64,000 bases of DNA, from IMG/VR virus record IMGVR_UViG_3300043395_002432, positions 1 to 64,000 of that record; one strand, 5' to 3'. The DNA is from a virus. The notes under the pieces were generated by a model. It searched no databases, was not told the DNA's origin, and saw nothing but the letters and a program-made list of their open reading frames with translations. The position numbers were made by a program, and so were the translations under genes. Below are positions 10,742 to 17,112 of this stretch, in pieces (position 1 is the stretch's first letter; the number at the start of each line of letters is the position of its first letter).

Positions 10742-10826
10742 TGAGACGGGCAGGAGTCGAACCTGCGTCCTTCAGCGATTGAATCCGAAGATTCTCACTG
10801 GCGCTCTACCACTGAGCTACCGCCCC
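10742..10826 (-). ncRNA. tRNA-like RNA, extended anticodon arm capped by C(UUCG)G
   Basis: canonical D/T arms; CAGTGA-GAATC-TTCG-GATTC-AA-TCGCTG. Confidence 0.8.
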
Positions 10827-10829
10827 ATA

Positions 10830-10961
10830 TGTCAGGGAGGGATCTCCCTCACCCCAGAAGAGCGTTTCCGCATGCCAACACTGTAGCCTCGACCAGATCT
10901 GCCTCCAGTCTATCTACCCCCGTGGGTATCCCATTTGGGTCTTGAACGGGCTTTCCTGACA
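10830..10961 (-). ncRNA. unidentified ~130-nt structured RNA in tRNA array
   Basis: ends pair (TGTCAGG/CCTGACA); several internal hairpins including GCG-GAAA-CGC; abuts tRNA-like units on both sides. Confidence 0.45.
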
Positions 10962-10962
10962 A

Positions 10963-11035
10963 TGCCAGGGGGGTGACTTGCACACTCATCTCCGAACCTT
11001 GTGGCTCGGCGTCCTTCTTTTTGGACGACCCCGGC
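10963..11035 (-). ncRNA. tRNA-like RNA, 7-bp anticodon stem with ACAA loop
   Basis: GCCGGGG/CCCTGGC acceptor; CCGAGCC-ACAA-GGTTCGG; T-loop TGCAAGT. Confidence 0.65.
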
Positions 11036-11040
11036 TTGAA

Positions 11041-11127
11041 TGCCCCCGACCGGATTTGCACCGGTATCTCCATGCACTTTGGCGTTCTACTCACCCCCGC
11101 TGGGGGTACCGCTTGAACTACAGGGGC
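11041..11127 (-). ncRNA. tRNA-like RNA with hairpin inserted in D-loop and 3-bp anticodon stem
   Basis: GCCCCTG/CGGGGGC; D-loop insert ACCCCC-AGC-GGGGGT; CCA-AAGTGCA-TGG; ACCGG-TGCAAAT-CCGGT. Confidence 0.65.
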
Positions 11128-11160
11128 GCTTGCTGTGGGGGCGGTTAGCAGCCGCTCCTC

Positions 11161-11700
11161 TCACCCCCAGAAGTTAGTCACGCGACGCGAAGGGTCAAGC
11201 ATCTTTCCGCACCCGAATTCCTCTCCGTCCTCGTCTTTGAACAGCGCCTCCTCCCCCTCGCGGAGAAGAGCGCGAACATACCGGTGGATCACGTCGAGCG
11301 GGTAGCCGTCACTCCGCTTCAGGTCGAAGTCGAAGTAGTCCCGCGCCACGTCCGTCACCCCAGCCGACCGCCGCTCCCCGTACTGACACGCCGCCACGAG
11401 GTTCAGATCCGCAAGCCGTACCTCGCGCAAGAAGACCGCAAGCTCTCTCGCACGCTCCTTGGTGAACCACGTCGGGGGCGGAGGGGGCGTCAACGACTGA
11501 AGCCTCACGATCTCCCTGGCGTCCGCCCCAGAGAAGAAGATCGCCTCCACCCGAGCGAAATCCTGAAGGGTCTCGGGAAGACCCGAGACCTCCCACGGCT
11601 CCGCACCAATGAGAAGCACGGCAGTCCTCGCTGGCACCAAGCCATGCGTCTTCGCGTACTGACGCAGCTCCGTCCGAGGACAATGGATCGCTATGGGCAT
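11161..11700 (-). CDS. PTP/DSP-like phosphatase (CX5R)
   Basis: LVAACQYGERRSAGV P-loop; GGAGAG RBS before MPIAIHC. Confidence 0.65.
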   Translation of the reverse strand: MPIAIHCPRTELRQYAKTHGLVPARTAVLLIGAEPWEVSGLPETLQDFARVEAIFFSGADAREIVRLQSLTPPPPPTWFTKERARELAVFLREVRLADLNLVAACQYGERRSAGVTDVARDYFDFDLKRSDGYPLDVIHRYVRALLREGEEALFKDEDGEEFGCGKMLDPSRRVTNFWG

Positions 11701-11711
11701 CTTCTCTCCAA

Positions 11712-11803
11712 AGGAGGCGGTGGGATTCGAACCCACGGGTCAGGGTGTTAGCCCGACCTCCGATTTTCAAGACCGGCGCAATCAACCGCTCTGCCACGCC
11801 TCC
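11712..11803 (-). tRNA. tRNA-Ser(TGA)
   Basis: CCGGT-CTTGAAA-ATCGG, long variable arm. Confidence 0.9.
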
Positions 11804-11807
11804 GTAA

Positions 11808-11879
11808 AAGGGGATACAGGACTCGAACCTGCGATTAGAGGGTCAAAACCTCTTGCCTTGCCAACTTGGCCAATCCCCT
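11808..11879 (-). tRNA. tRNA-Gln(TTG)
   Basis: AGAGG-TTTTGAC-CCTCT. Confidence 0.85.
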
Positions 11880-11926
11880 GCTCAAGCTATGCACAGCCCC
11901 CGCAATTTCTGTCAGGAACGTGTCAA

Positions 11927-12001
11927 AAGGGGATGCAGGATTCTCTACGACCTGCGATCAGAGGGTCAGAACCTCTTGCCTTACCGCTTGGCTAATCCCC
12001 T
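11927..12001 (-). tRNA. tRNA-Gln(CTG) with enlarged 11-nt T-loop
   Basis: AGAGG-TTCTGAC-CCTCT; T-arm GCAGG-TCGTAGAGAAT-CCTGC; paralogue of preceding Gln. Confidence 0.7.
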
Positions 12002-12024
12002 TCAGACGAATTCGAATTCGTTTA

Positions 12025-12096
12025 TGGCGGTGACTGGATTCGAACCAGCAGCCCTTCGTGTATGAAACGAATGCTCTACCCTTGAGCTACACCGCC
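12025..12096 (-). tRNA. tRNA-Met or Ile2 (CAT)
   Basis: TTCGT-TTCATAC-ACGAA. Confidence 0.85.
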
Positions 12097-12142
12097 GCTT
12101 TCCTTACTCTTCCTGCTCTTGCCCTTCTTCCTGCCCTTCTTC

Positions 12143-12781
12143 CTACTCCGCTTCAGGCTTCAGCCTCTCTTTCCAATCCTCCTCAAACATCGCACGATAC
12201 ATGCGGTAGTGTCGCAGGAGCGGTTCAGGAACCTTGTCCAGACGAGCCTCCAGATCGAGGATCTCTTGGTGCCGCCGACGCTCCCATTCGTCCCCCGTGG
12301 CTCTTCCTCGACTCTGGCCAACGAGGCGGTAATGCACCATGCACTCCAGCATCTCCGTCGTGATGCCATTCCTGAAATCTTCAGGACGAAGGGACATGGG
12401 AGCGAAGGGATATCCGTCCTTCTTGTAGACTCGGTGAAATCGCTTGCGCCCCGCTGGGGTCAGCGCACCACGAATCTCCCACACAGCGTCACTGACACCA
12501 GACCACCGCAGGGGATCATGTGCCAGATACTGCCGACGCCGCTCAGGCGTCCACTTGCGACCAGCCGCCTCCGCCTCCTCCTTGGTGGAGAAGTAGTGTC
12601 CCTGAAGCTCCTCCCGCCCCTCCCAATGCTCATGCTTGAAACCTGAAGGGCCGTCTGGATGCTCTGCCGTCACCGAGAGGTAGAACGGACTCGTCCACGT
12701 TCCAAATTCGAATTGCCACTGATCGATCTCCCAGCCCGCTGGCCGAGGAAGCGGGACGCCCTCAAACACCTTGAAGCTCAT
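12143..12781 (-). CDS. hypothetical protein
   Basis: 212-aa ORF inside tRNA cluster, ATGA-coupled to upstream ORF. Confidence 0.65.
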   Translation of the reverse strand: MSFKVFEGVPLPRPAGWEIDQWQFEFGTWTSPFYLSVTAEHPDGPSGFKHEHWEGREELQGHYFSTKEEAEAAGRKWTPERRRQYLAHDPLRWSGVSDAVWEIRGALTPAGRKRFHRVYKKDGYPFAPMSLRPEDFRNGITTEMLECMVHYRLVGQSRGRATGDEWERRRHQEILDLEARLDKVPEPLLRHYRMYRAMFEEDWKERLKPEAE

Positions 12782-15985: not shown

Positions 15986-16046
15986 AATCTACGCACCGCA
16001 ACCCTCTCGGGAAGGAGCGCGGGAGGGGCTTGACACGTTCTTGACA
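15986..16046 (-). promoter_or_regulatory. promoter driving tRNA sub-array
   Basis: minus strand TGTCAAGAACGTGTCAAG, 37 nt, TAGATT. Confidence 0.65.
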
Positions 16047-16092
16047 TGCCCCCGTTGCTTGACTCCGCTTGGTGCGACGAAGTCGACTTCGT

Positions 16093-16368
16093 TCACTCAC
16101 GCGCCGAAGCGATCTCTCTCGCCTGCTCAAGCTCTCGCTCCATATGGCGGCGAATCCACCGCATGAGCAAGATCCCCTTCTCCTCCGCACCAAAGGTCGG
16201 CTGCGACCCCTGAGCATTCTTGGTGTCCTCCACGGGGATTGGGAAGAGCCAGCCGTCGAAGGTCTTGTACCAAAGCGCATCCTCTCGAAAGAACGCGAAG
16301 ACCGCCTTCTCCTTCACCCGATCCCGACAGAGGGCGTTCAACTGCTGCACCTCATGCTTGCGTTCCAT
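16093..16368 (-). CDS. phage hypothetical protein
   Basis: LWYKT...FPIPVEDT...EKGILLMRWIR; AGGAG RBS. Confidence 0.7.
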   Translation of the reverse strand: MERKHEVQQLNALCRDRVKEKAVFAFFREDALWYKTFDGWLFPIPVEDTKNAQGSQPTFGAEEKGILLMRWIRRHMERELEQAREIASARE

Positions 16369-16381
16369 CTCTTCTCCTGAT

Positions 16382-16472
16382 TGGGTAGAGTACGATTCGA
16401 ACGAACACCTCCGAGGTACGCCCCCGTAGGAGGGCGGCTTCCACAGCGTCATTCCACTTTGACTATCTACCC
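16382..16472 (-). ncRNA. tRNA-like RNA, extended arm capped by C(UACG)G
   Basis: GGGTAGA/TCTACCC; GTCA/TGAC D-stem; CGCCCTCC-TACG-GGGGCG. Confidence 0.7.
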
Positions 16473-16475
16473 GAA

Positions 16476-16570
16476 TAGGGAGTGAAGGATTCGAACCTTC
16501 GTCATGGGCAGCGCGCCACCCATGAACCTGCACTGTTCGCAGGCGCTTTCAACCACTCAGCCAACCCCCC
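16476..16570 (-). ncRNA. type-II tRNA-like RNA, loop GA-ACA-GT (no U33), 10-bp variable stem
   Basis: CCTGC-GAACAGT-GCAGG; TCATGGGTGG-CGCG-CTGCCCATGA. Confidence 0.7.
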
Positions 16571-16641
16571 GAAAGTGTCTGCGGCAACGGAGACGCGAAG
16601 ATGAACCGCGCAAGAATCCGCAAACACTATAGCTTTGCTAT

Positions 16642-16714
16642 AGCCACCAGAGGGATTTGAACCCCCGACCCGCTGTTTACAAAACAGCCGCTCTGGCCCC
16701 TGAGCTACGGTGGC
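16642..16714 (-). tRNA. tRNA-Thr(TGT)
   Basis: GCTGT-TTTGTAA-ACAGC. Confidence 0.9.
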
Positions 16715-16718
16715 ACCA

Positions 16719-16799
16719 TGGGGTCTGCGGGACTTGAACCCGCACGCTTGTGGCAGGAGATTTTGAGGCTCCCGTGTCTGCCAATTCCACCAAGACCCC
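16719..16799 (-). tRNA. tRNA-Leu(CAA)
   Basis: loop CTCAAAA; Leu-type D-arm GGTGGAATTGGCAGACAC; variable arm. Confidence 0.85.
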
Positions 16800-16802
16800 A
16801 AG

Positions 16803-16873
16803 CAGGCCGGGAGGGATTCGAACCCTCACAAGGTGCTTTTGGAGAGCGCCCGACTCATCCTGCGCTCCAGCCT
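16803..16873 (-). tRNA. tRNA-Trp(CCA), irregular D-arm
   Basis: GCGCT-CTCCAAA-AGCAC; AGGCTGG/CCGGCCT-G73. Confidence 0.7.
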
Positions 16874-16876
16874 ATA

Positions 16877-16938
16877 CAGGGGGGAAGGGATTCGAACCCA
16901 AGAACTTGACGCTCTTCCGCCGACACCCGCCCGCCCCT
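16877..16938 (-). ncRNA. minimal/degenerate tRNA-like RNA (62 nt)
   Basis: AGGGG/CCCCT acceptor, GGGTTCGAATCCC T-arm, no clear D-arm. Confidence 0.45.
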
Positions 16939-16942
16939 ATGA

Positions 16943-17015
16943 TGCACTCGACGGGGCTTGAACCCGTCTCTCCTGAGTGAAAATCAGGGATTCTGACCAG
17001 CTAAAATACGAGTGC
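16943..17015 (-). tRNA. tRNA-Glu(TTC)
   Basis: CCTGA-TTTTCAC-TCAGG. Confidence 0.8.
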
Positions 17016-17019
17016 GAAT

Positions 17020-17112
17020 TGCCCTGTGCAGGATTCGAACCTGCACCCTCGGATCTTGCCCAGGCTCACGCCCGAACGCCTCCGCCGTCTTGTCCAATTC
17101 GACCAACAGGGC
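17020..17112 (-). ncRNA. tRNA-like RNA, extended arm capped by GUGA (GNRA) tetraloop
   Basis: CGGA-GGC-GTTCGGGC-GTGA-GCCTGGGC-AAGA-TCCG; perfect acceptor and T arm. Confidence 0.8.

What the first reader, a model, noticed from the sequence alone, without database searches (positions are those of the whole stretch)
10742..17112. Anticodon loops repeatedly replaced by long stems capped with ultrastable tetraloops
Seen: different tRNA bodies converge on the same design. 10742 has C(UUCG)G, 16382 C(UACG)G, 17020 GUGA (GNRA), 15554 GCAA (GNRA), 13352 a C(UUCG)G sub-hairpin, and 15160 a 12-bp uninterrupted stem. Established: UNCG and GNRA are the most stable RNA tetraloops and cannot decode mRNA. 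Inference: repeated arrival at these caps implies selection for a closed, nuclease-resistant arm, like a natural version of the engineered tRNA-scaffold expression trick.
Basis: partly seen in the sequence, partly recalled or inferred. Interest (0 to 1): 0.8.

Follow-up and report, generated by a model that had tools for sequence, protein, structure and literature searches.

The report
Phage tRNA look-alikes without working anticodons
About half of the tRNA-shaped genes in this uncultured freshwater phage keep a tRNA body but have the codon-reading loop closed, lengthened or scrambled, so they probably act as tRNA look-alikes and not as decoders, and what they do is still unknown.

Summary
All six quoted structures are in the sequence, on the minus strand. 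They belong to a larger set. A tRNA covariance model finds 36 tRNA-shaped genes at 17228-10469; I read about 17 as usable decoders and about 18 as non-canonical. O and A are long closed arms capped by UUCG and GUGA. D is a 5-bp arm with GCAA. G is a 12-bp stem with a 16-nt loop. The UUCG hairpin of I lies in the variable region. In C the UACG register is not the predicted fold and is not kept in the relative. UNCG/GNRA caps exceed shuffled arms (4 observed; 0 of 500 shuffles reach 4). Other closed arms carry ordinary caps.

One 92-96% identical relative (L001) shows quick remodelling. F is a normal tRNA-Ile there. Stem changes mostly keep pairing (13 of 17). Bodies change about as slowly as real tRNAs, and arms at the intergenic rate.

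The phage also encodes an RNA ligase and a Hen1/Pnkp-ligase fusion. My best reading (0.42) is that these are selected, non-decoding tRNA mimics in a conflict over tRNAs. Processing modules or decaying genes remain live rivals. The "nuclease-resistant scaffold" idea is only partly supported.

Earlier unchecked notes of this scan describe similar mimics in other phages. I found such arms in six more viral contigs.

The parts
17163..17228 (-). S: mini tRNA-like. Acceptor stem and T arm, no D arm, with a 10-bp closed arm (one U-U mismatch) capped by a UGA triloop.
   Evidence: Own tRNA model R1, 22.7 bits, E 4.3e-5. Arm fold z -3.7. Lies outside L001.
17020..17112 (-). A: tRNA body whose anticodon position holds a 4-bp stem, an internal loop and an 8-bp stem capped by GUGA.
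   Evidence: Rfam tRNA 47.4 bits. Folds. In L001 three G-U pairs of the upper stem are Watson-Crick while the 3' strand is unchanged. ARAGORN mislabels it tRNA-Arg(gcg).
16876..16937 (-). Q: mini tRNA-like with a 3-bp T stem, G-rich and C-rich ends and no cloverleaf.
   Evidence: R1 15.4 bits, E 0.005. Present in L001 with a different junction. This is the weakest member.
16476..16570 (-). B: class-II-like tRNA shape with a long variable arm and a 7-nt loop GAACAGU that lacks U33.
   Evidence: Rfam 45.5 bits. Cloverleaf in the minimum-energy fold. One G-U to A-U change against L001. ARAGORN labels it Cys(aca).
16382..16472 (-). C: tRNA body with a 6-bp lower stem (one U-U mismatch in the window), an internal loop and a 7-bp hairpin. 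The letters C-UACG-G are present, but the predicted loop is CUAC.
   Evidence: R1 22.5 bits.. L001 has a perfect lower stem, a perfect T stem and a shorter hairpin with a different loop.
15554..15630 (-). D: tRNA-like with a 5-bp arm capped by GCAA in the anticodon position and a 3-bp hairpin in the variable region. Pair 1:72 is A-C in the window and G-C in L001.
   Evidence: R1 27 bits.. In L001 its T loop is the odd 11-nt form.
15479..15551 (-). E: 73-nt cloverleaf with a 7-nt loop GGUGAAU (no U33). The loop differs at 4 of 7 positions in L001.
   Evidence: Rfam 43.6 bits.. The same L001-type alleles are seen in runs X4 and X6.
15262..15341 (-). F: tRNA-Ile body with a 13-nt loop. Its counterpart in L001 is a canonical tRNA-Ile(GAU).
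15160..15255 (-). G: tRNA body with a 12-bp uninterrupted stem and a 16-nt loop in the anticodon position.
   Evidence: Rfam 53.5 bits. R1 places 29 nt where 6 are expected. Arm z -5.2. Identical in L001, but the surrounding ~300 nt are identical too.
13608..13847 (-). About 240-nt RNA candidate. Its ends form an 8-bp acceptor-like helix beside a T arm, and it contains an internal D-arm-like segment.
   Evidence: R1 18.2 bits. Rfam tmRNA 19.5 bits against a gathering score of 47. Fold z -2.0. ARAGORN finds no tmRNA.
13454..13527 (-). H: 74-nt cloverleaf with a 10-nt anticodon loop.
   Evidence: Rfam 44.1 bits.. One D-loop difference against L001.
13352..13452 (-). I: 101-nt tRNA-like with a 4-bp/5-nt-loop hairpin in the anticodon position and two extra hairpins in the variable region, one of them C(UUCG)G.
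   Evidence: Rfam 37 bits.. Identical in L001.
13187..13272 (-). J: class-II Tyr-like shape with loop CGGUACA (G33, C37) and a GGGA-capped variable arm.
   Evidence: Cloverleaf in the minimum-energy fold. R1 23 bits. The variable-arm loop gains one base in L001.
13093..13181 (-). K: class-II Ser-like shape with loop CGCGAAG (G33; A33 in L001) and a G3-U70 pair.
   Evidence: All 5 of its changed stem pairs stay paired in L001.
11927..12001 (-). L: tRNA-Gln(CUG) with an 11-nt T loop. Its counterpart in L001 has a normal T loop.
   Evidence: Rfam 46.8 bits..
11041..11127 (-). M: tRNA-like with a 20-nt hairpin inserted in the D loop, a 3-bp anticodon stem and T loop UGCAAAU.
   Evidence: R1 34 bits. 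Rfam 38.1 bits.
10963..11035 (-). N: 73-nt tRNA-like whose anticodon position is a 7-bp stem capped by ACAA. T loop UGCAAGU.
   Evidence: 27.2 bits. Arm z -5.6.
10742..10826 (-). O: tRNA body with a 6-bp stem, an AA bulge and a 5-bp stem capped by C(UUCG)G.
   Evidence: Rfam 52.5 bits.. ARAGORN mislabels it Phe(gaa). Its 24-nt 5' half is identical to that of bacterial tRNA-Lys(UUU) genes.
10675..10739 (-). P: 65-nt mini tRNA-like whose anticodon arm is reduced to a 3-bp stem and a 4-nt loop. T loop UGCAAAU.
   Evidence: 28.8 bits..
10469..17015 (-). The span that holds the canonical decoders among which most of the mimics sit: Val, Arg, Ser-UGA, Gln-UUG, Met, Asn, Tyr, Phe, Ala-CGC, Ala-UGC, fMet, His, Lys-CUU, Thr, Leu-CAA, Glu, plus an odd Trp. 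Neighbouring elements are 1-6 nt apart.
1132..2271 (-). RNA ligase gene, given as context for a conflict over tRNAs. The 19-nt motif that also precedes the tRNA sub-clusters lies upstream of it.
   Evidence: Pfam PF09414, E 9e-13. PHROG 548, E 9e-33. Motif at 2354-2372.

Best explanation
The structures are real. They belong to a battery of about 18 non-canonical tRNA-shaped genes interleaved with about 17 ordinary tRNA genes in one co-oriented 6.8-kb array of a T4-like, uncultured freshwater phage.

Each keeps the acceptor stem, most keep the T arm and elbow nucleotides, and most keep the D arm. These are the parts read by RNase P, by 3' trimming and CCA addition, and by EF-Tu and other enzymes that recognise tRNA shape. 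The anticodon arm is instead closed by a hairpin, lengthened, shortened, or given a loop without U33.

I read them as selected, non-decoding tRNA mimics. They would be transcribed and cut out together with the true tRNAs and would accumulate as stable tRNA-shaped RNAs. They could not read codons and would offer no normal anticodon loop to anticodon nucleases. They would act in trans by occupying host or phage proteins that recognise tRNA shape. The most likely setting is a conflict over tRNAs, for which the same phage carries an RNA ligase and a Hen1/Pnkp-ligase fusion.

Shown here: the sequences and predicted folds, the intact bodies, pairing-preserving change against the relative, recent conversion of a decoder (F), and recurrence in other viral contigs.

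Inferred, not shown: expression, processing, stability, any binding partner, and the decoy role itself.
For: 1. Bodies are intact while the arms are aberrant. All lettered elements A-P have 7 of 7 acceptor pairs, or 6 of 7 for D. The tRNA model R1 gives 36 hits at E <= 0.01, all on the minus strand, and places the extra or missing bases in the anticodon loop for O, G, F, N and P.

2. The arms are more stable than shuffles for most elements, and UNCG/GNRA caps are enriched (0 of 500 shuffles reach the observed 4).

3. Against the one relative, L001 (92-96% identical), substitutions are: canonical tRNAs 24/1056, mimic bodies 19/619, mimic arms 23/411, ORFs 137/2895, intergenic 58/1021. Bodies change more slowly than intergenic DNA (Fisher p 0.016) and not differently from canonical tRNAs (p 0.34).

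4. Of 17 substituted stem pairs in the mimics, 13 stay paired in both haplotypes: K 5/5, E 2/2, F 2/2, A 3/4, B 1/1. Binomial p is 0.025 at a chance of one half.

5. Both haplotypes recur in other metagenome runs. The window type is in X3 and X5 with zero differences over the listed pieces. L001-type alleles are in X4 and X6.

6. Neighbouring elements, mimic or canonical alike, are 1-6 nt apart. That fits common processing.

7. Context: RNA ligase and an 871-aa Hen1_L + methyltransferase + PNKP-ligase protein.

8. The same design occurs elsewhere. R1 places 21-39 extra bases in the anticodon-loop position of full-length tRNA bodies in L086, L087, L089, L090, L098 and L100. ARAGORN calls no tRNA gene anywhere in the 8.9-kb locus L086.

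9. [quoted passage not shown]
Against: - Only one relative at useful distance exists, so there are two haplotypes in all. None of the mimics' stem changes is a double compensatory change. The canonical tRNAs show 3 such changes among 10 of 10 preserved pairs.
- As a class the arms change at the intergenic rate (5.6% against 5.7%).
- Some changes look like plain damage. The window's C has two mismatches and its D an A-C pair at 1:72, all three repaired in L001. L (window) and D (L001) carry an 11-nt T loop that should upset the elbow. L001's tRNA-Ala(CGC) has a 4-nt deletion in the D arm.
- G and I are identical in both haplotypes, but so is the DNA around them. That says nothing about selection.
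- The arm designs share nothing except being folded.
- The five distant relatives I searched hold 0-1 tRNA genes, so the array is not an old, conserved module.
- No protein partner was identified. The ORFs inside the array are orphans.
- A closed arm would not mimic the anticodon stem-loop that the classical anticodon nucleases recognise (my own knowledge).
Confidence: 0.42

Rival explanations
1. Processing modules. These are former tRNA genes that lost decoding. They are kept in shape only because the tightly packed operon needs every unit to fold as an RNase P / 3'-end substrate, so that the neighbouring tRNAs and the ORFs just downstream are released correctly. On this reading the closed hairpin is structural filler that keeps the cloverleaf from misfolding, and the RNA has no role in trans.
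For: - Spacers of 1-6 nt separate neighbouring units.
- ORFs begin about 10-16 nt after the 3' ends of C, E, G, Asn and Ser-UGA (sequence, ORFs).
- F and L were decoders very recently; L001 still has the canonical Ile and Gln-CUG forms.
- Bodies are constrained while arms are free.
- The arms share no design.
Against: - Canonical tRNAs already flank most units and could serve as cleavage signals.
- The mini forms (P, Q, S) and the T-loop and D-loop variants (L, M) would be poorer RNase P substrates, yet they persist.
- A similar closed-arm tRNA-like gene stands alone in L086, with no tRNA gene called in 8.9 kb.
- The reading does not explain why nearly half of the array would be filler in a phage genome.
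Confidence: 0.28
2. Decaying pseudogenes. The array turns over quickly, unused tRNA genes pick up indels, and hairpin-forming insertions arise in one step by template switching at the inverted repeat of the anticodon stem. Nothing is selected.
For: - Disabling events are visible in both haplotypes within about 5% divergence: F's loop insertion, the 11-nt T loops of L and D, the D-arm deletion in L001's Ala-CGC, and the mismatches in the window's C and D.
- Arms evolve at the intergenic rate.
- tRNA genes are gained and lost between the haplotypes: Glu-CUC and a second Trp in L001, Trp in the window.
- The added parts of the stems of G and O, and of A in L001, are perfect Watson-Crick. A templated origin would give that.
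Against: - Acceptor stems are 7 of 7 paired in nearly all elements.
- Bodies change more slowly than intergenic DNA (p 0.016).
- 13 of 17 changed stem pairs stay paired.
- Special caps are enriched over shuffles.
- Both haplotypes persist in several runs.
- Similar genes occur in unrelated viral contigs.
Confidence: 0.15
3. This is a natural tRNA scaffold: the tRNA body is a stabilising handle, and the closed, tetraloop-capped arm is the selected, nuclease-resistant product or payload.
For: The architecture equals that of the engineered tRNA scaffold, which is processed and protected in E. coli (PMC3401473, passage read). UNCG/GNRA caps are enriched over shuffles.
Against: - The caps are not conserved: C and J differ in L001.
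- Many arms have ordinary caps or large loops.
- The arms show no shared motif.
- No antisense target of 10 nt or more exists in the phage genome.
- No Rfam family matches beyond tRNA.
- The arms are the fastest-changing part.
Confidence: 0.05
4. They still decode, or are made decodable. Either they are nuclease-evading tRNA variants with altered loops, or they are pre-tRNAs whose inserted hairpin is cut out and rejoined by the phage's RNA ligases.
For: B, E, J and K keep 7-nt loops, and K and J keep Ser- and Tyr-type anticodons with changes at positions 33 and 37. That resembles the published idea that phage tRNAs escape anticodon nucleases through loop mutations (PMC10264068, part 1 of 3 of the text read). 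The phage has two ligase-type genes. Removing A's upper hairpin leaves exactly 7 loop bases.
Against: For the closed arms, no excision restores a 5-bp stem with a 7-nt loop carrying U33 and a purine at 37. A leaves GGCAAGA (G33) in the window and 10 bases in L001, C leaves 6 and O leaves 2 (read). E's "anticodon" changes at 4 of 7 loop positions between the haplotypes. None of the loops of B, E, J or K has U33.
Confidence: 0.07

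Closest known systems
Small stable RNAs of the phage T4 tRNA region (RNAC and RNAD; species 1 and 2)
   Same: Non-tRNA small RNAs transcribed from within a T4-type phage's tRNA gene cluster, with unknown roles. [quoted passage not shown] This phage has a T4-like capsid, portal and prohead protease.
   Different: I did not compare sequences or structures, because no T4 sequence was fetched. My memory that the T4 RNAs are partly tRNA-like and are processed like tRNAs is recall only. Here there are about 18 such genes, not 2, and most are full tRNA bodies with only the anticodon arm altered.
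Engineered tRNA scaffold (Ponchon and Dardel)
   Same: [quoted passage not shown] The chimera is recognised, processed and protected like a tRNA (PMC3401473, passage read). O, A, C, G and N have this architecture.
   Different: It is man-made and carries a payload. The natural arms here are plain hairpins with no recognisable payload, and they vary quickly.
YrlA, the tRNA-like bacterial and phage Y RNA (Rfam RF02553)
   Same: A non-decoding RNA that mimics a tRNA and is handled by tRNA enzymes. It is also found in phages (PMC4201824, abstract read).
   Different: The best YrlA score here is 27.2 bits against a gathering score of 69. There is no Ro60/TROVE gene in the 139-kb record. In YrlA, as I recall it, the ends lie on the long stem and the acceptor end is closed; here the ends form the acceptor stem.
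Phage tRNAs with anticodon-loop mutations proposed to escape host anticodon nucleases
   Same: Phage tRNA arrays whose anticodon loops depart from the host's, in phages that also repair tRNA (PMC10264068, part 1 of 3 read). B, E, J and K fit this pattern loosely.
   Different: Those tRNAs keep a 7-nt loop and a usable anticodon and are meant to decode. The closed arms of A, C, D, G, N, O, P and S cannot decode.
Anticodon-less tRNA mimics noted earlier by this scan in other phages (AI notes e1-5741287, e1-5974002, e1-5870527, e1-6013626)
   Same: tRNA bodies with a capped hairpin in place of the anticodon loop, in or near phage tRNA clusters.
   Different: Those notes are unchecked by me and concern other genomes. 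Here the number of different bodies in one array, and a direct before-and-after pair (F against tRNA-Ile in L001), are the added points.

Membership tests
tRNA (Rfam RF00005), as a shape | Score at or above the gathering score of 29 bits on the tRNA covariance model | tested here: met
   Met for A 47.4, B 45.5, E 43.6, F 55.2, G 53.5, L 46.8 and O 52.5, and for H 44.1, M 38.1 and I 37.0. Not met for C, D, J, K, N, P, Q and S, which were found only by ARAGORN (C, D, K) or by my own model R1 at 15-29 bits.
tRNA, as a decoder | A 5-bp anticodon stem with a 7-nt loop carrying U33 and a purine at 37 | tested here: not met
   A, C, D, G, N, O, P and S have closed, extended or truncated arms. F has a 13-nt loop, H a 10-nt loop and I a 5-nt loop. 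B, E, J and K have 7-nt loops without U33.
tRNA, as a decoder | CCA end and aminoacylation | not testable with these tools
   I saw no CCA after the discriminator base of the genes I read (sequence). No CCA-adding enzyme gene (PF01743) is in the record. Charging cannot be computed.
YrlA / Y RNA (RF02553) | Rfam score of at least 69 bits | tested here: not met
   The best match is 27.2 bits at 13298-13405. It spans parts of I and of tRNA-Phe.
YrlA / Y RNA (RF02553) | A Ro60/TROVE protein gene in the same genome | tested here: not met
   PF05731 has 0 matches in the 139,496-bp record, which is estimated to be 68% complete.
tmRNA (RF00023) | tRNA-like ends with G3-U70 plus a tag reading frame, and a score of at least 47 bits | tested here: not met
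   This concerns 13608-13847. Rfam gives 19.5 bits and ARAGORN finds no tmRNA. The end helix has G-C at the third pair (fold).
Intron-containing tRNA | Removing one contiguous insert restores a canonical anticodon stem-loop | tested here: not met
   The residual loops are A GGCAAGA (G33; 10 nt in L001), C 6 nt and O 2 nt. By contrast, the giant-virus hits of the pattern scan do restore CUUUUAA-type loops.
T4-type small stable RNAs of the tRNA cluster (RNAC/RNAD) | A non-decoding small RNA gene located inside a phage tRNA cluster | tested here: met
   Location is shown. This is a loose, positional class (PMC3014915).
T4-type small stable RNAs of the tRNA cluster (RNAC/RNAD) | Sequence or structural homology to T4 RNAC or RNAD | not tested
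   No T4 sequence was fetched. The near-identity search of the array against 50,697 phage records gave only four matches of about 73-75 nt over single tRNA genes, in Ruegeria and Synechococcus phage records.

The most novel reading that the evidence does not exclude
The phage runs an RNA-based counter-defence arsenal. It would consist of a dozen or more different tRNA bodies with the anticodon arm deliberately closed, each a non-cleavable, non-decoding stand-in for a particular host tRNA. O, for example, carries the 5' half of bacterial tRNA-Lys(UUU) genes, and the array has no Lys-UUU decoder. These stand-ins would soak up host immune effectors that recognise the tRNA elbow, acceptor stem or 3' end. 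The set would be renewed quickly by converting decoders into decoys, as seen for tRNA-Ile becoming F between two circulating haplotypes.
Probability: 0.2. Interest if true: 0.85.

Novelty: new variant of a known kind. Interest (0 to 1): 0.6.

Why it matters
Phage tRNA genes are now read mainly as replacements for host tRNAs destroyed by immune nucleases. If many "tRNA genes" in large phages are shape-only mimics, three things follow.

- tRNA counts and codon-compensation analyses of phage genomes are inflated. ARAGORN gave eight of these elements (A, B, C, D, E, F, K, O) an anticodon that I read as spurious.
- There may be an unstudied class of RNA decoys or regulators aimed at proteins that bind tRNAs.
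- Nature would have arrived at the tRNA-scaffold trick, which could supply ready-made stable RNA chassis.

The window also offers a rare before-and-after pair. The same gene is a normal tRNA-Ile in one circulating haplotype and remodelled in the other, which makes the process experimentally approachable once a host is found.

Tried and rejected
**Relatives**
- Single-protein scans of viral contigs with three array-flanking or internal proteins and with the capsid protein found no relative.
- A genome-contig scan found none.
- The word-index search found only one 89% relative of the 376-aa flanking protein, on a 2.5-kb contig.
- The capsid alignment reached only relatives at 42% identity or less. 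The five longest or closest records that I searched hold 0-1 tRNA genes, so no family-level covariation test was possible.

**Expression**
- No RNA holder was listed. The contigs laid are DNA and say nothing about transcripts.

**Promoters and terminators**
- Sigma-70-type and terminator-like sites are no more frequent than in shuffles.

**Splicing model**
- Rejected; see the rival explanations.

**Antisense model**
- The loops of G, H, F, E and B have no complementary match of 10 nt or more in the phage genome apart from their own locus, except a few 10-11-mers for the GC-rich loop of F.

**Mobile-hairpin model**
- I looked for the 7-9-nt core of the odd T loop across the genome and L001. The full form occurs only in L (window) and D (L001). 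I prepared a search with the arm sequences in that script but did not run it.

**Proteins inside the array**
- Pfam and PHROGs gave nothing beyond a weak dual-specificity-phosphatase hit for one CX5R ORF.
- The full HMMER library search of the other CX5R ORF gave 4 hits. Two are weak hits in long proteins, one is the 94% identical counterpart and one is probably its paralogue.
- The 187-aa ORF looks like a GNAT acetyltransferase only by language-model features (0.93). Its AlphaFold model failed (mean pLDDT 32.7), so no fold search was run.

**Isotype of the bodies**
- BLAST of G and O against phage records was uninformative.

**Tetraloop enrichment in viral contigs**
- This crude test used one D-arm/T-loop pattern with CTTCGG against two composition-matched hexamers.
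- CTTCGG gave 14 stretches, 10 of them distinct. Three distinct ones are giant-virus intron tRNAs. Five distinct ones were confirmed as extended arms among the 6 loci (five from this scan plus L100 from the first control) that I gave to the model. L088 and L092 were not given to the model and stay unclear.
- Control CGTCTG gave 30 stretches, 26 distinct. Of these, 24 are ordinary tRNA-Met genes matched out of register, so this control is confounded. One (L100) is an extended arm.
- Control CTGTCG gave 5 stretches, 3 distinct, none closed.
- I treat this as suggestive only.

**Literature**
- Searches found no paper describing closed-anticodon tRNA mimics in phage tRNA clusters.
- PMC3958112 and PMC5003029 are not held. 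Supplements were not opened.
- The library lacks most subscription journals, so "not found" is not "not published".

Full report
**What the region is**

The window is the first 64 kb of a 139,496-bp viral record with about 60% G+C. Outside the window the record encodes a T4-type major capsid protein, portal, prohead protease and tail sheath. Runs that hold the stretch are labelled freshwater or riverine metagenomes.

All tRNA-like genes of the record lie in one array on the minus strand, between 17228 and 10469. ARAGORN genes. Rfam gives 22 tRNA matches at gathering score in the window and 26 above cut-off in a whole-record search. I built a covariance model, R1, from 17 canonical tRNAs of this phage and its relative. 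It finds 36 matches at E <= 0.01, all on the minus strand.

By my reading of the loops:
- 16 are ordinary decoders.
- One Trp gene has a lengthened anticodon stem around a normal CUCCAAA loop.
- One Gln-CUG gene (L) has an abnormal 11-nt T loop.
- 18 are non-canonical. I lettered them A-K, M-Q and S; the last is a candidate RNA of about 240 nt.

**The observation**

- O (10742-10826) and A (17020-17112) have long closed arms capped by C(UUCG)G and GUGA.
- D (15554-15630) has a 5-bp arm capped by GCAA.
- G (15160-15255) has a 12-bp uninterrupted stem that ends in a 16-nt loop.
- I (13352-13452) has a C(UUCG)G hairpin, but in the variable region.
- C (16382-16472) contains the letters C-UACG-G. 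The nearest-neighbour model prefers a 7-bp stem with a CUAC loop (-12.5 against -6.4 kcal/mol).

The covariance model places the extra bases in the anticodon loop: O has 20 where 7 are expected, G 29 where 6, and F 8 where 2. N and P have the loop replaced or deleted. M has a 20-nt hairpin in the D loop.

Across 11 arms the minimum-energy folds hold 14 hairpins, and 4 of them have UNCG or GNRA caps. In 500 dinucleotide-preserving shuffles of the same arms the mean was 0.39 and the maximum 3, so none reached 4. Arm stability is far beyond shuffles for G, N, S and O, moderately for H, A, P, F and D, and not for C and I.

The canonical tRNA-Tyr caps its normal variable arm with C(UACG)G. Such caps are therefore ordinary hairpin practice in this array.

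**Comparative evidence**

The lineage is poorly sampled.
- Four single-protein scans of viral contigs and one of bacterial genomes found nothing.
- The nearest capsid proteins are 87% identical (on a 3-kb contig), then 44% and 42%.
- The five more distant relatives I searched have 0-1 tRNA genes.
- One metagenome contig, L001 (6,432 bp), is colinear with 17125-11123 at 92-96% identity.
- Laying contigs of four other runs showed only these two haplotypes. The window type is in X3 and X5, and L001-type alleles are in X4 and X6. Both are therefore real, circulating forms and not assembly errors.

The two haplotypes differ in informative ways.
- F is a canonical tRNA-Ile(GAU) in L001. In the window it has six extra loop bases and a 13-nt loop.
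- L is a canonical tRNA-Gln(CUG) in L001. In the window its T loop is an 11-nt form.
- The same odd T loop sits in D of L001, while the window's D has a normal one.
- A's upper stem has three G-U pairs in the window that are Watson-Crick in L001, with the 3' strand unchanged.
- C has a mismatch in its lower stem and one in its T stem in the window. Both are paired in L001, whose hairpin is shorter with another loop.
- E's 7-nt loop differs at 4 of 7 positions.
- K differs at position 33 and at five stem pairs, all of which stay paired.
- L001's tRNA-Ala(CGC) has a 4-nt deletion in its D arm.
- Whole genes come and go: Glu-CUC and another Trp in L001, Trp in the window.

In numbers, substitutions per site are:

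| Class | Substitutions | Rate |
|---|---|---|
| Canonical tRNAs | 24/1056 | 2.3% |
| Mimic bodies | 19/619 | 3.1% |
| Mimic arms | 23/411 | 5.6% |
| ORFs | 137/2895 | 4.7% |
| Intergenic | 58/1021 | 5.7% |

- Bodies are slower than intergenic DNA (p 0.016) and not distinguishable from canonical tRNAs (p 0.34).
- Arms equal the intergenic rate (p 1.0).
- Of 17 substituted stem pairs in the mimics, 13 stay paired in both haplotypes. Four are paired in only one; in three of those the window is the mismatched haplotype.
- Pairs affected by indels in C, and one pair in L's abnormal T loop, were left out of this count.
- In canonical tRNAs 10 of 10 stay paired, including three double compensatory changes. 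The mimics have none.
- This is modest evidence for structural constraint (binomial p 0.025 at a chance of one half).
- G and I are identical in both haplotypes, but their surroundings are too, so that is uninformative.

**Are the bodies different?**

With the anticodon arm excluded, the mimics are 55-78% identical to each other and to canonical tRNAs. That is the range seen between different isoacceptors. Only L and Gln-UUG reach 87%. They are therefore not recent copies of one mimic.

O's first 24 bases are identical to those of 17 bacterial loci. Nine are tRNA-Lys(UUU), two are tRNA-Ala(UGC) and six are fragments. This is a weak hint at a Lys-type origin. The array has Lys-CUU but no Lys-UUU decoder.

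**Context**

- Neighbouring units are 1-6 nt apart whether mimic or tRNA.
- Five small ORFs start about 10-16 nt after a unit's 3' end.
- A 19-nt motif occurs six times in the window where none is expected. Three copies are in or at the edge of the array and one is upstream of the RNA ligase gene.
- The phage encodes an RNA ligase and an 871-aa protein with Hen1_L, methyltransferase and PNKP-ligase domains.
- There is no Ro60/TROVE gene and no CCA-adding enzyme gene.
- The ORFs inside the array are orphans. Two are paralogues with a CX5R motif, which I read by eye; one has a weak dual-specificity-phosphatase hit. One is GNAT-like by language-model features only. Its structure model failed.

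**Elsewhere**

A pattern for a type-I D arm, an over-long middle containing CTTCGG, and a T loop hit 14 stretches of viral contigs, 10 of them distinct. Three distinct ones are giant-virus tRNAs with ordinary introns. I gave six loci to R1: five from this scan plus L100 from the first control. In all six it places 21-39 extra bases in the anticodon-loop position of otherwise full-length tRNA bodies. L100 has two such genes side by side and a third with a 4-nt loop. ARAGORN calls no tRNA gene in the 8.9-kb locus L086.

Two composition-matched control hexamers gave one extended arm and none. The first control was swamped by ordinary tRNA-Met genes matched out of register. Earlier AI notes of this scan report the same kind of gene in other phages. 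I did not verify those.

**What it most likely is**

The pattern is intact acceptor stems, T arms and elbows with arbitrary but folded anticodon arms. Together with pairing-preserving change and recurrence in unrelated phages, it argues that many of these are kept for a job that needs tRNA shape but not decoding.

Published work shows that such chimeras are processed and stable in bacteria (PMC3401473, passage read). The RNA-repair genes, and the published view that phage tRNA arrays answer host attacks on tRNAs (PMC10264068, part 1 of 3 read; PMC7824862, passages read), make a role in that conflict the most plausible one.

I put 0.42 on trans-acting mimics, whether decoys, sponges or acceptor-end substrates. 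The rest is spread as follows:
- 0.28 on processing modules that are constrained only in cis.
- 0.15 on unselected decay.
- 0.07 on residual or restorable decoding.

Ongoing disabling events in both haplotypes, and the neutral rate of the arms, keep the ordinary readings alive. The array is probably a mixture of classes.

**Comparison with what is known**

- The nearest published things I could find are the RNAC and RNAD small RNAs of the T4 tRNA region, whose roles are unknown (PMC3014915, passage read).
- YrlA is excluded by score, by architecture and by the absence of Ro60.
- Next come the engineered tRNA scaffold and phage tRNAs with loop mutations that may escape nucleases.
- Six literature searches found no description of closed-anticodon tRNA mimics in phage tRNA clusters. 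The library omits most subscription journals.
- I therefore rate this a new variant of a known kind: non-decoding small RNAs in phage tRNA clusters.

Noticed in passing
window 2354-2372(-), 10324-10342(-), 13585-13603(-), 16027-16045(-), 23135-23153(+), 50197-50215(-): A 19-nt motif (two GTCAAG half-sites) occurs six times where none is expected by chance. It precedes two tRNA sub-clusters and the RNA ligase gene, and about 35 nt further on there is a TAnnTT-like hexamer. It is a candidate phage promoter or regulator site that links the tRNA array and RNA repair (sequence).
   Followed up: partly
window 11927-12001(-) and L001 1811-1891(+): The same abnormal 11-nt T loop (three normal loop bases replaced by seven) sits in tRNA-Gln(CUG) in the window and in mimic D in the relative. 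Each haplotype has exactly one gene with it, and the partner gene is normal. This could be short-patch gene conversion or a required single copy. It is unexplained.
   Followed up: partly
window 11161-11736(-) and 14679-15149(-): Two paralogous orphan ORFs inside the tRNA array carry a CX5R cysteine-phosphatase-like motif, which I read by eye. One has a weak Pfam DSPc hit, E 0.007. A full-library HMMER search found almost no relatives. They might be RNA-end phosphatases.
   Followed up: partly
window 14162-14725(-): A 187-aa orphan ORF in the array with a GNAT-like motif. Language-model neighbours are all GNAT acetyltransferases (score 0.93). It has no Pfam or PHROG hit, and the AlphaFold model failed.
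   Followed up: partly
own genome 127330-129945(-), outside the window (L005 9330-11945): An 871-aa protein combines Hen1_L, a methyltransferase domain and the PNKP ligase domain. That would be a fused form of the bacterial Pnkp/Hen1 RNA repair pair, carried by a phage.
   Followed up: no
window 13608-13847(-): A candidate RNA of about 240 nt that starts right after tRNA-Ala(CGC). Its ends form an 8-bp acceptor-like helix next to a T arm, and it has an internal D-arm-like segment. It is not a tmRNA by ARAGORN or Rfam. It is nearly unchanged in L001.
   Followed up: partly
window 16803-16873(-) and L001 4467-4544(+): The two haplotypes carry different tRNA-Trp genes at different places. Both have lengthened anticodon stems, and the L001 one has A33.
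   Followed up: no
window 13093-13181(-): The Ser-like element K has a G3-U70 pair, the classical alanine identity mark (my own knowledge). It keeps that pair in L001. It could be charged with alanine.
   Followed up: no
window 10619-10674(-): A purine-rich run of GAGA-type repeats lies between mimic P and tRNA-Arg (sequence). Read laying flagged skipped repeats at 10632-10666.
   Followed up: no
L086 5494-5596, L087 15-105, L089 5730-5822, L090 990-1081, L098 3079-3160, L100 1107-1305 and 3589-3657: tRNA bodies with closed or extended anticodon arms occur in six other viral contigs. Several are capped by C(UUCG)G, and L100 has three in 2.6 kb.
   Followed up: partly
L001 3557-3625(+): The relative's tRNA-Ala(CGC) has a 4-nt deletion in the D arm, where the window's copy is intact.
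   Followed up: no
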